From assembly GCF_050920415.1 (NCBI RefSeq), contig NZ_CP169310.1: a stretch of 64,000 bases of DNA, one strand, 5' to 3'. The first letter of the stretch is position 1. Each line of letters starts with the position of its first letter. This DNA comes from Escherichia coli. GTDB taxonomy: Bacteria > Pseudomonadota > Gammaproteobacteria > Enterobacterales > Enterobacteriaceae. Below, piece by piece: positions 21,001 to 24,000 of this stretch. Made by a program: the position numbers.

Positions 21001-24000
21001 AGGACAACACTGCAGTAGTCAGAATCAGAGTAGGAAGAAAAAGAGAATAATCACGGGAAAGGTAATGTCATTTCTGACAACTGGCCATAAACAGAGAAGG
21101 CGCGTTCATCCCCGTTCCCGAAGGGAAACGGCCTTCCTGAAATCAGGTTGTTCAGTAAGCGGCTCGCCAGAACCGTATTGATATTTACTGAGAGGTCAGA
21201 TCAACTTTCCAGGGCAACAGATCGCGTACCCGGTTTGCCGGCCAGTCCTGGATATGCTCAATGACGTAACGCAGCCATTTTTCTGGTTCCACATTGTTCA
21301 GACGGCATGTGCCGATCAGCGAGTACAACACCGCCGCATGTTCGCCACCGCTGTCGGAACCCGCGAAGAGCCAGTTTTTCCGGCCTACGGCCACTCCCCG
21401 TAAGGCGTTCTCTGCGATGTTGTTGTCGATTTCCACCTGGCCATTACTGCAGTACACGTTCAGGCCATCCCACTGTTTCAGCAGGTATGCGAACGCTTTT
21501 GCCGTATCCGAGTGACGCGACAGTGTTTTCATCTGAGTCTGTATCCAGTCATACAGTGACTGCATCAGTGGCGCAGCTCTGGCTTTTCTTGCCGCCAGAC
21601 GCTGTTCTGCTGTACATCCCCGGACTTCTGCCTCTATGGCATACAGTTCACCGATACGCTGCAGGGCTTCCGTGGTGATGTCGGTGGGCACTCTTGCATG
21701 CACATCGTGGATTTTTCTCCGGGCATGAGCCATACACGCGGCTTCCGTTATTCTGCCGGATTCGTATAACACCCGGTAACCACCGTAAGCATCGGCCTGA
21801 AGCACACCGCTGTAACCGGCCAGATGATTCTGTGGATGGACGCCTTTCCGGTCCGGGCTGTACGCGAACCAGACCGCCGGAGGCATCTGTGAACCGGCGT
21901 TACGGTCATCACGGACGTAGACCCACAGCCGGGCAGTCCTTGTTTTACCACTGCCCGGCTCCTGGACCGGGACGGGGATATCATCGGCATGGACTTTACC
22001 GGGCATCAGCACATACTGGCGCAGGACGTCATACAGCGGCTCCAGCAGTTCAGCAACGGCACCTGTCCAGCGCCCCAGCGTGGCGCGGCTCAGCTCCACG
22101 CCCTGGCGACGGTATATTTCTGACTGGCGGTATAACGGCAGATGGTCTGCATATTTCCCGGTGACAACATGGGCCAGAAGCCCCGCTCCGGCATAACTGC
22201 GTGCAATGGGTTTTGAAGGTACTGGTGCCTGCACGATATGGTCGCACCGGCAACAGGCCAGTTTCGGACGTTGTGCTTCGATAACCTTAAAGGCGCTGCT
22301 GATAAGCTCCAGTTGCTCTGACACATCACATCCCAGAGAACTGAGTTCGCCACCACAGGCCGGGCAGCATTCCTCTTCCGGCCGGATAACCCGGGTTTCA
22401 CGGGGAAGTGAGGTCGGTAACGGTTTACGGGCAGAAGACTGGCGCAGGGGGGATGGCAGTGCCGGGTCATATTGCTCACCCAGCGTTTCTGCCATTTCTT
22501 CCTGAAGTGCGCTGATTCGCTCCTGTGCTTCCTGTATCTGCCGTTCGGTTTTTGCACGAAGTTTTTCTGAGCTTTTACCGAACTGCATACGCTGCAGTTT
22601 CGCAACCAGCGCCTTCAGCCGGTTGATTTCGGAAGCATAAGCCGCCACCCGCTGTGAGAGCAGGCGGTTGTATTCAGCCATCTGGCGGATGGTGTCCTGT
22701 TGTGTCTGCAACAGTGCCCGCAGGCGGGCATTCTCATGAGCAAGTGAGGTGTCCATATCCTCACTTTACATCGGGTTATATGCGGATTCCAGCGCGTTCC
22801 GTTCGTTTCGGGTGCTTCCAGTTGATGCCCTCAAGAAGCATGGACAACTGAGCCGGAGTAAGGTGAACCTTTCCATCGCGGGTGACCGGCCAGACGAAGC
22901 GGCCCCGCTCCAGGCGTTTGGTGAAGAGGCACAGTCCGTCGCTGTCAGCCCACAACACTTTTATCTGGTCACCCCGGCGTCCGCGGAAGATGAACAGATG
23001 CCCGGAGAACGGGTCATCCTTCAGGACGTTCTGAACTTTTGATGCCAGGCCGTTAAAACCATTTCGCATGTCGGTGATACCGGCAACCAGCCAGATACGT
23101 GAACCGGCAGGGAGAGATATCATCAGTGGCTGCTCCCTTTCATTTCGCGGATAAGTGTCTGTAATAACGCCGGTGTCAGTTCACCTTTCAGCCTGAGAGT
23201 TCCGGCCGGCAGAACCAGCTCGCAGCACAGACTGTCTGGCAGTGTATTTATCTGTTCAGGTATCTGCACTGGTGCCGGGATTTTATTATCCGGCTCCGGA
23301 GTTAACGTCACGGGAAGTAGCGATGTTTCATGTTCGCCGGGCGGCTGCAGGCCGCCGTTACGCCAGAGATGCCGCCAGTTAAAGAGCAGGTTATCGTTGA
23401 TTCCGTTCTCACGAGCTATTTGTGCGACACAGGCACCGGGTAAAAGAGTCCGCTGAACAAGTCTCCATTTAAACTCCGGTGAAAATCGGTTCCGGCGGGG
23501 TTTCTCTGCTTTCACAGGCTGAGTCACGGTCGGGGTTGAAGGATATCGCCCCGGGAAAAGAGCCCGGGCCAGTTGCCCGCAGGAATATTCACCGGAAAGG
23601 GGCCAGTCAGTGAATACCTGGTGAAATCGCCTCACCAGAGAAAAAATGGCGGTTTTGCTGACACCAGTCTGCGCAGAAATGCGCGGGTACGACAGTGACT
23701 CGTCAAATCTCAGCTGTAGCACACGCAGGATCAATTCCGGATTATCTGCCAATACCGCCTTTCGTGCATTCATCTTAAATGTCCTTTTACTGCGAAAATG
23801 GACATTAGTATCGGAAACAGGAAAGGGAGGCGAAAGACGGTTTAAATGATGCGCTTACCTTTCGTGCATTCATCTTAAATGTCCTTTTACTGCGAAAATG
23901 GACATTAGTATCGGAAACAGGAAAGGGAGGCGAAAGACGGTTTAAATGATGCGCTTACGTTGTTCATGCCCGTACAACATCAGCAAGGAGAAAGGGGCTA

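What the first reader, a model, noticed from the sequence alone, without database searches (positions are those of the whole stretch)
23759..23966. IS66-family element carries a perfect 100 bp tandem duplication of its own terminus, inside an intact 8 bp target duplication
The tnpA-proximal end of the IS66 element, including the terminal GATGCGCTTAC and the first tnpA codons, occurs twice in tandem (23759-23858 and 23859-23958). The 8 bp direct repeat GTTGTTCA flanks the whole element (21147-21154 and 23959-23966). The element therefore has two candidate right ends and a duplicated tnpA promoter/start region. This could affect transposase expression or end choice, or it could be an assembly artefact.
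Basis: seen in the sequence. Interest (0 to 1): 0.4.

Follow-up and report, generated by a model that had tools for sequence, protein, structure and literature searches.

The report
IS66-family element with duplicated end
An IS679-like insertion sequence on a large E. coli F-type plasmid really does carry a second, identical copy of its last 100 bases; it is most likely a harmless scar left when a copy of the element jumped into itself, and is a minor curiosity, not a new system.

Summary
Units 23759-23858 and 23859-23958 are identical. The 8-bp target duplication GTTGTTCA flanks the whole 2804-bp element, and other plasmids show the empty site with one GTTGTTCA.

It is not an assembly artefact. 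The same junction occurs in 11 of 5426 complete E. coli genomes, always at this locus of one ~225-kb IncFIA/FIB plasmid. The carriers come from two laboratories, including nanopore long-read assemblies, two serotypes and two continents. The canonical element is 2704 bp with a single end. Identical 2704-bp copies with 8-bp duplications lie elsewhere, one on the chromosome of the same strain. The 2804-bp form is never seen at a second site.

The duplication junction sits exactly at the transposase cleavage point with only 1 bp of microhomology, so transposition chemistry probably made it. My preferred route is that an identical copy inserted in direct orientation 100 bp inside the resident copy. 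Recombination between the resulting 2.6-kb direct repeats then collapsed the nest. A related plasmid preserves the inverted-orientation version of such a self-nest at the same locus.

Any effect on expression or end choice is untested. In passing, the few hundred bases 3' of hok hold many independent IS679/ISCro1-like insertions.

The parts
21147..21154 (.). Left copy of the 8-bp target-site duplication GTTGTTCA
   Evidence: The empty site with a single copy is seen in L001 and L008-L012.
21155..23958 (-). Whole IS679-like (IS66-family) element including the extra end: 2804 bp. The canonical form is 2704 bp (21155-23858).
   Evidence: Canonical 2704-bp copies that are 100% identical lie at other sites with 8-bp duplications.
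21155..21176 (+). tnpC-proximal terminal inverted repeat (GTAAGCGGCTCGCCAGAACCGT...)
   Evidence: Alignment of the two termini: positions 1-7, 10-11 and 17-22 match.
21185..22756 (-). tnpC, IS66-family DDE transposase, 523 aa
   Evidence: NF033517 at 476 bits against a cut-off of 180. It is 98% identical to a protein annotated 'IS66-like element IS679 family transposase'.
22776..23123 (-). tnpB, IS66 accessory protein, 115 aa
   Evidence: NF033819 at 128.9 bits against a cut-off of 50.
23123..23773 (-). tnpA, IS66 accessory protein, 216 aa
   Evidence: NF038385 at 282 bits against a cut-off of 150. RefSeq uses the same coordinates.
23759..23858 (-). Unit 1: the inner tnpA-proximal terminus. 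It holds the IR at 23837-23858, the 85-nt leader and the first 5 tnpA codons. This is the end used by the canonical 2704-bp form.
   Evidence: Canonical copies end here.
23859..23958 (-). Unit 2: the outer, duplicated terminus (IR at 23937-23958), which abuts the target duplication
23805..23873 (-). 22-codon ORF created by the duplication: the tnpA start of unit 2 reads into the inner IR, giving MNARKVSASFKPSFASLSCFRY*
   Evidence: Expression is not shown.
23959..23966 (.). Right copy of the 8-bp target-site duplication GTTGTTCA
24094..24426 (-). Neighbouring intact hok/mok/sok locus. The hok CDS is at 24094-24219 and sok RNA at 24250-24426. The IS end lies 135 bp 3' of the hok stop.
   Evidence: Annotation of the colinear record; Rfam RF01794 at 88.9 bits; distance.

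Best explanation
The feature is a real, stably inherited structural variant of an IS679-like IS66-family insertion sequence. It lies in the leading region of a ~225-kb conjugative IncFIA/FIB plasmid (pCFSAN004181P type). The element has three termini: one tnpC-proximal end and two identical tnpA-proximal ends 100 bp apart in direct repeat.

The most likely origin has two steps. (1) An identical copy, either the plasmid copy itself or the identical chromosomal copy in the O168:H8 hosts, transposed in direct orientation into the resident copy. The target octamer was CTTTCGTG, 100 bp from the resident copy's tnpA-proximal tip. This gave resident[1..2612] - new IS[1..2704] - resident[2605..2704]. 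(2) Homologous recombination between the two adjacent 2.6-kb direct repeats deleted one of them. What remains is a complete IS followed by the last 100 bp of the old one, still inside the original GTTGTTCA duplication.

Shown: the structure, its inheritance, the canonical 2704-bp form, and the fact that this IS type inserts into copies of itself at this locus. Inferred: the direct-orientation nested intermediate and its collapse.

Functionally the extra end is probably neutral. It offers an alternative outer end and a second leader and start that opens a 22-codon ORF. Only the 2704-bp form is ever seen at other sites.
For: Real and inherited:
- A 60-mer across the junction is found in exactly 11 of 5426 complete E. 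coli genomes. It is always on the same plasmid at the same locus, and all 11 match 601/601.
- Carriers are O168:H8 (USA and Japan) and O116:H16 (Japan). The Japanese genomes are ONT long-read assemblies.
- The US plasmids carry an IS110 that OkiPb01715 lacks, so the duplication predates that divergence.

Canonical form:
- 100%-identical 2704-bp copies with single ends and 8-bp duplications occur in the GB089 chromosome (ACAATAAT), MFDS1022581 (CCTGAAAG) and N96 (ATGACGTC).

Transposase involvement:
- The junction is the exact IS tip (...GCGCTTAC) joined to internal sequence, with only 1 bp of ambiguity or microhomology.
- A random 100-bp duplication would hit an IS tip in this window with probability of order 1e-3 or less (my estimate from the roughly a dozen IS termini).

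Step 1 occurs in nature:
- In plasmid pNCYU-25-82-2 (L015) a complete IS679-like copy (TSD ATGCAAGA) sits inside another IS679-like copy (TSD GGGAAAAG) in inverted orientation. The outer copy ends 265 bp from hok. Recombination would be expected to invert rather than delete an inverted nest, which would explain why it is preserved.

The locus attracts this IS:
- There are at least 6 TSD-verified independent insertions 135-432 bp from the hok stop, plus an opposite-orientation insertion at the same site within 1 bp.
- The inferred inner target lies 235 bp from the hok stop, within that range.

Step 2 rests on established knowledge: RecA-dependent deletion between kilobase-long direct repeats is efficient, whereas 100-bp repeats recombine far less readily.
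Against: The sequence carries no signature that separates this route from its rivals, because the inner 8-bp duplication is simply the first 8 bp of the repeat unit.
- No record holds the predicted intermediate: a 60-mer for its other junction finds nothing in 5426 genomes.
- No record holds the progenitor state, a single end at GTTGTTCA: the IS-end/flank 60-mer finds only the same 11 carriers.
- The only observed self-nest (L015) is inverted. Its inner insertion lies about 810 bp from hok, outside the 135-432 bp range.
- The transposition chemistry of IS66-family elements is not established, to my knowledge. Han et al. 2001 (the IS679 paper) could not be read here.
Confidence: 0.55

Rival explanations
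1. The junction is transposase-made but no complete nested copy ever existed. The tnpA-proximal tip is cleaved, or undergoes one-ended strand transfer, and is joined to the sister copy of the same IS 100 bp inside its end. This could happen by unequal sister exchange or by break repair templated on the sister. The result is the tandem repeat directly.
For: The exact coincidence of the junction with the cleavage site, with only 1 bp of microhomology, fits equally well. No nested intermediate is on record. The two units are identical, as expected if both derive from sister copies.
Against: There is no direct evidence. It needs an aberrant, incomplete transposition reaction plus a special resolution step. 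By contrast, complete self-insertion of this IS type is actually observed (L015). The reaction chemistry of IS66-family elements is unknown.
Confidence: 0.2
2. The 100-bp duplication arose elsewhere and the 2804-bp three-ended element transposed to this site as a unit, using its outer end. This concerns where the duplication arose, not how it was made.
For: The target duplication GTTGTTCA flanks the whole 2804-bp unit, and no progenitor with a single end exists at this site.
Against: The junction occurs at only one locus in 5426 E. coli genomes and 72,556 plasmids, and not at all in the metagenome contigs. Every other identical copy is 2704 bp. A duplication arising in situ also leaves the outer target duplication intact.
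Confidence: 0.1
3. The duplication is unrelated to transposase. It arose by replication slippage, template switching or illegitimate recombination, and its end happens to fall at the IS tip.
For: Tandem duplications of about 100 bp do arise spontaneously. One base of microhomology (C) is present at the junction.
Against: One base of microhomology is essentially none. The chance that an endpoint falls within 1 bp of an IS terminus is of order 1e-3 or less in this window (my estimate). The locus shows abundant real transposition of this IS type.
Confidence: 0.1
4. It is an assembly artefact: a single 100-bp terminus was written twice.
For: The round length of exactly 100 bp and the perfect identity look suspicious in isolation.
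Against: Eleven assemblies from two groups agree base for base over 601 bp. Nine of them are ONT long-read-only assemblies at 63-254x coverage (which also gives 75x for OkiPb01715). The plasmids otherwise differ, by IS110 presence and by a 1-bp deletion in the 09-00049 copy. They are therefore not copies of a single record.
Confidence: 0.03

Closest known systems
IS679 (IS66 family; E. coli plasmid pB171; Han et al. 2001 J Bacteriol 183:4296)
   Same: It has the tnpA-tnpB-tnpC organisation, termini beginning GTAAGCG and 8-bp target duplications. The canonical length of 2704 bp matches my recollection of IS679. TnpC is 98% identical to a protein that PGAP names 'IS679 family transposase'.
   Different: The window copy carries an extra 100-bp copy of the tnpA-proximal terminus (2804 bp). 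Identity to the ISfinder reference could not be checked, because the reference and the paper are not held.
Three-ended transposons such as Tn1721/Tn1722 (Tn3 family), in which a duplicated end gives a minor and a major transposon (from my own knowledge)
   Same: One terminus is duplicated in direct repeat, so two nested units share one end and each has a complete pair of inverted repeats.
   Different: In Tn1721 both units are known to transpose, and the duplicated segment is kilobases long and carries cargo. Here the repeat is 100 bp with no cargo, and only the shorter unit is seen at other sites.
Self-nested transposable elements, for example 'double Ds' in maize (from my own knowledge) and the IS679-like nest in pNCYU-25-82-2 found here
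   Same: A copy of an element inserts into another copy of itself. L015 shows this for the same IS type at the same plasmid locus, with both 8-bp duplications intact.
   Different: Those nests are inverted and preserved. The window would be the recombination-collapsed product of a direct-orientation nest, which is inferred and not observed.
Alternative-end elements (ISEcp1, IS91/IS1294 one-ended transposition)
   Same: More than one sequence can in principle serve as one boundary of the mobile unit.
   Different: Those elements use degenerate surrogate ends in flanking DNA and mobilise adjacent genes. Here the second end is a perfect copy within the element's own target duplication, and nothing extra is mobilised.

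Membership tests
IS66 family (IS679 group) | Three consecutive genes tnpA, tnpB and tnpC, with tnpC the DDE transposase | tested here: met
   NCBIfam equivalogs NF038385 (282 bits, cut-off 150), NF033819 (129, cut-off 50) and NF033517 (476, cut-off 180). Individual DDE residues were not inspected.
IS66 family (IS679 group) | Imperfect terminal inverted repeats starting 5'-GTAAGCG | tested here: met
   GTAAGCGGCTCGCCAGAACCGT versus GTAAGCGCATCATTTAAACCGT.
IS66 family (IS679 group) | 8-bp target-site duplication | tested here: met
   GTTGTTCA on both sides, with the empty site seen elsewhere. Eight-bp duplications are also found at nine other copies.
IS66 family (IS679 group) | Identity to the ISfinder IS679 reference (95% DNA or more for the same name) | not testable with these tools
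   The reference sequence and pB171 are not in the collections. Indirect support: 98% TnpC identity to a PGAP 'IS679 family transposase', and a 2704-bp length that matches my recollection.
Three-ended (nested-unit) transposon of the Tn1721/Tn1722 type | An additional complete terminal repeat in direct orientation | tested here: met
   Two identical termini end at 23858 and 23958.
Three-ended (nested-unit) transposon of the Tn1721/Tn1722 type | Both the short and the long unit transpose | tested here: not met
   The 2704-bp unit is found at several sites. The 2804-bp unit is found at one locus only, in 5426 genomes, 72,556 plasmids and the metagenome contigs. Absence in databases is not proof of inability.
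Nested self-insertion of an IS | Two copies, the inner one flanked by its own target duplication inside the outer one | tested here: inconclusive
   The window holds only IS tip plus 100 bp. This is compatible with a collapsed direct nest, but no independent inner duplication can be seen. The predicted intermediate is not found. The feature is fully met in L015.
Assembly artefact | Not reproduced in independent long-read assemblies | tested here: not met
   It is reproduced in 11 assemblies from two projects.

The most novel reading that the evidence does not exclude
The terminal repeat is the footprint of targeted self-insertion. IS679/ISCro1-like IS66-family elements would be actively directed to a short stretch 3' of hok in the leading region of F-type plasmids, for example by structured or single-stranded DNA during conjugative entry, or by a bound host or plasmid factor. 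A second copy drawn to the same hotspot would then land inside the resident one. That would reveal a target-selection mechanism for a family whose transposition is essentially uncharacterised, and would supply a natural three-ended substrate for studying its end choice.
Probability: 0.2. Interest if true: 0.5.

Novelty: new variant of a known kind. Interest (0 to 1): 0.25.

Why it matters
On its own this is a small structural scar in a well-known IS family. It has three modest uses.
- It is a natural three-ended IS66-family element. It can be used to ask which end TnpA, TnpB and TnpC choose, in a family whose mechanism is barely studied.
- Together with the inverted self-nest in pNCYU-25-82-2, it documents self-insertion of IS679-like elements and gives a simple, testable rule: a direct nest collapses and leaves the shorter arm duplicated. 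That rule may explain other 'partial IS next to full IS' structures that annotators usually dismiss.
- It is a precise lineage marker for a Shiga-toxin-producing E. coli plasmid found in two serotypes (O168:H8 and O116:H16) on two continents.

Tried and rejected
- Assembly artefact: rejected.
- Progenitor with a single end at the same site: searched with a 60-mer of IS end plus flank in E. coli genomes and plasmids. Only the 11 and 2 duplication carriers were found.
- Predicted direct-nest intermediate junction: no match.
- Duplication junction in metagenome contigs: no match.
- Duplicated sigma-70 promoter: the consensus scan finds none in the unit.
- New RNA structure created by the duplication: the fold of the doubled leader is not significant, with z = -1.6.
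- Orientation bias of IS insertions next to hok: I suspected this because all first hits had the tnpA end toward hok. I rejected it after a mirrored query found 57 plasmid records in the opposite orientation against 64. The apparent bias came from the query design.
- Reading Han et al. 2001 and fetching pB171 to confirm the name IS679: neither is held.
- Literature searches for IS66 terminal duplications or self-insertion found nothing relevant.
- A systematic survey of all IS66-family copies for junctions of IS tip with internal IS sequence could not be done with these tools.

Full report
**Observation**

Tandem Repeats Finder reports a single array at 23758-23958: period 100, 2.0 copies, 100% matches and no indels. 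A direct comparison shows that 23759-23858 and 23859-23958 are identical. Identity extends one base to the left (C at 23758, 23858 and 23958) and none to the right. The 30-mer ending in the IS tip...GATGCGCTTAC, occurs exactly twice in the 64-kb window. GTTGTTCA lies at 21147-21154 and at 23959-23966.

**What the element is**

The stretch between the two GTTGTTCA copies encodes three minus-strand genes:
- tnpA, 23123-23773
- tnpB, 22776-23123
- tnpC, 21185-22756

Each scores far above the curated NCBIfam cut-off for the IS66-family equivalogs. The termini are imperfect inverted repeats beginning GTAAGCG. TnpC is 98% identical to a protein that PGAP labels 'IS66-like element IS679 family transposase'.

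Copies 100% identical to 21155-23858 exist at other sites. Each is exactly 2704 bp with one end on each side and its own 8-bp duplication:
- GB089 chromosome, inside a prophage: ACAATAAT
- MFDS1022581: CCTGAAAG
- N96, inside mdtF: ATGACGTC

The canonical, recently active element is therefore 2704 bp, which is the length I recall for IS679. I could not check that figure because the paper and pB171 are not held. The window copy is the canonical element plus a second copy of its last 100 bp. GTTGTTCA is a true target duplication, since related plasmids show the uninterrupted site with one copy.

**Is it real?**

The window is colinear with NZ_CP012499.1 (E. coli GB089 plasmid pCFSAN004181P), positions 159829-223828.

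A 60-mer spanning the duplication junction is found in exactly 11 of 5426 complete E. coli genomes and 2 of 72,556 PLSDB plasmids. It is always on the same ~225-kb IncFIA/FIB plasmid at the same locus, and all 11 match the 601-bp query perfectly. The carriers are:
- GB089 and 09-00049 (USA; 09-00049 is described as serogroup O168)
- OkiPb01715 (O168:H8, Japan)
- eight O116:H16 strains from Okinawan cattle

The Japanese genomes were assembled from ONT R10.4.1 long reads alone at 63-254x coverage.

The plasmids are not copies of one record. The US plasmids carry an IS110 that OkiPb01715 lacks, and the 09-00049 IS has a 1-bp deletion. I put the artefact at about 3%.

**How it arose**

The key fact is where the junction lies. 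The exact transposase cleavage point (...CTTAC) is joined to internal IS sequence 100 bp upstream, with only one base of microhomology. A duplication made by slippage could end anywhere. With about a dozen IS termini in 64 kb, I estimate the chance of landing on one within 1 bp at 1e-3 or less. Transposition chemistry is therefore the likely author.

The simplest complete route has two steps.
1. An identical copy inserts in direct orientation into the resident copy at CTTTCGTG (23759-23766). This gives resident[1..2612] - new[1..2704] - resident[2605..2704].
2. Homologous recombination between the adjacent 2.6-kb direct repeats deletes one of them. What remains is a full IS followed by the resident copy's last 100 bp, still inside the original GTTGTTCA duplication.

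That product is exactly the observed sequence. The 8-bp duplication from the inner insertion is hidden as the first 8 bp of the repeat unit.

Two results make step 1 credible.

First, plasmid pNCYU-25-82-2 (L015) preserves a true self-nest of this IS type at the same locus. The inner copy is at L015 3595-6299 with duplication ATGCAAGA. It sits in inverted orientation inside an outer copy (1427-3594 plus 6300-6845) with duplication GGGAAAAG, and the outer copy ends 265 bp from the hok stop. Recombination inverts an inverted nest instead of deleting it, so inverted nests are the ones expected to survive.

Second, the O168:H8 hosts carry an identical second copy on the chromosome, so a donor was available.

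Step 2 rests on general knowledge of RecA-dependent recombination and was not tested here.

**Against this route**

- The predicted intermediate junction is absent from 5426 genomes.
- No progenitor with a single end at GTTGTTCA is on record.
- The sequence itself cannot separate this route from a one-ended strand transfer or break repair using the sister copy. I rate that rival at 0.2.
- The duplication might have arisen elsewhere and the 2804-bp unit moved here as a whole. That is possible but not parsimonious, because the junction exists at one locus only and is absent from the metagenome contigs.

**Consequences**

The element has two identical tnpA-proximal ends. Only the 2704-bp form is seen elsewhere. 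The eight O116:H16 chromosomes appear to have no copy at 99% identity or above, which I infer from the count of 18 such records. There is thus no evidence that the long form moves.

The outer unit supplies a second leader and a start codon that opens a 22-codon ORF running into the inner inverted repeat. The unit contains no consensus sigma-70 promoter, and the doubled leader has no significant new fold. I consider the duplication functionally neutral until tested. It has persisted unchanged in all 11 genomes.

**Surroundings**

The IS lies in the plasmid leading region, 135 bp 3' of an intact hok/mok/sok locus. sok is confirmed by Rfam and the annotation is.

This short stretch holds many independent IS679/ISCro1-like insertions:
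- 64 plasmid records have the tnpA end toward hok.
- 57 records have the opposite orientation.
- At least six insertions in the window's orientation are verified by their own 8-bp duplications, 135-432 bp from the hok stop.
- One opposite-orientation insertion of a different IS variant sits at the same site within 1 bp, flanked by a 9-bp repeat GGTTGTTCA.

An apparent orientation bias in the first search came from the query design, and the mirrored query removed it. A preprint has noted hok/sok loci near mobile-element insertion hotspots in E. coli and K. pneumoniae (10.1101/527788). The inferred inner target of the self-insertion lies 235 bp from the hok stop, inside this range, so regional targeting may have contributed. 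That link is speculative.

**Verdict**

The kind is known (IS66 family, IS679-like), and the variant is new but minor: a terminal duplication that is most likely a scar of self-insertion. Interest is 0.25.

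Noticed in passing
window 20857-21154 and 23959-24093; loci L001, L007-L013, L015: The few hundred bases 3' of hok in F-type plasmid leading regions hold many independent IS679/ISCro1-like insertions at different positions and in both orientations. 64 plasmid records have the tnpA end toward hok and 57 the opposite way. At least six insertions have verified 8-bp duplications 135-432 bp from the hok stop. This may be an insertion hot region for this IS group.
   Followed up: partly
L013 (NZ_LT985227.1 RCS28_pI) 290-3010: A different IS679-like variant (tip GTAACCGTCTCATTT) is inserted in the opposite orientation at the same site as in the window, within 1 bp. 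It is flanked by a 9-bp repeat GGTTGTTCA instead of 8 bp.
   Followed up: partly
L015 (CP042629.1 pNCYU-25-82-2) 1427-6845: A complete IS679-like copy (TSD ATGCAAGA) is nested in inverted orientation inside another IS679-like copy (TSD GGGAAAAG) next to hok. This is a preserved self-insertion.
   Followed up: yes
window 44739-44788 (minus strand): A solo 50-bp remnant of the tnpC-proximal end of the same IS type (98% identical). It ends at 44788 and abuts another transposase fragment annotated at 44772-45149.
   Followed up: no
window 20425-21047, 28564-29187, 31920-32347: A repeated leading-region module, made of a small gene plus its upstream GC-rich region, occurs three times (99% and 84% identity to the first copy). 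The IS hot region overlaps the end of the first copy. These may be Frpo-like single-strand promoter modules, but that was not tested.
   Followed up: no
window 19257-20261; L002 versus L003: An IS110-family element is present in the US plasmids (GB089, 09-00049) but absent at the same place in OkiPb01715. It marks divergence that occurred after the IS66 duplication arose.
   Followed up: partly
L002 (NZ_CP012500.1) 3597-6399: The 09-00049 plasmid copy of the element is 2803 bp. It has a 1-bp deletion relative to the window, and tnpB is missing from the PLSDB gene table for that record.
   Followed up: no
window 24465-25251 and 17779-18600: psiA is annotated as a frameshifted pseudogene, and the DUF932 gene has an internal stop, in the colinear RefSeq record. 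This points to some decay of leading-region genes on this plasmid.
   Followed up: no
L009 (NZ_CP043827.1) about 797-3499: An IS679-like copy next to hok has no matching target duplication, and its left flank is unrelated sequence. This suggests an IS-mediated rearrangement or recombination between copies.
   Followed up: no
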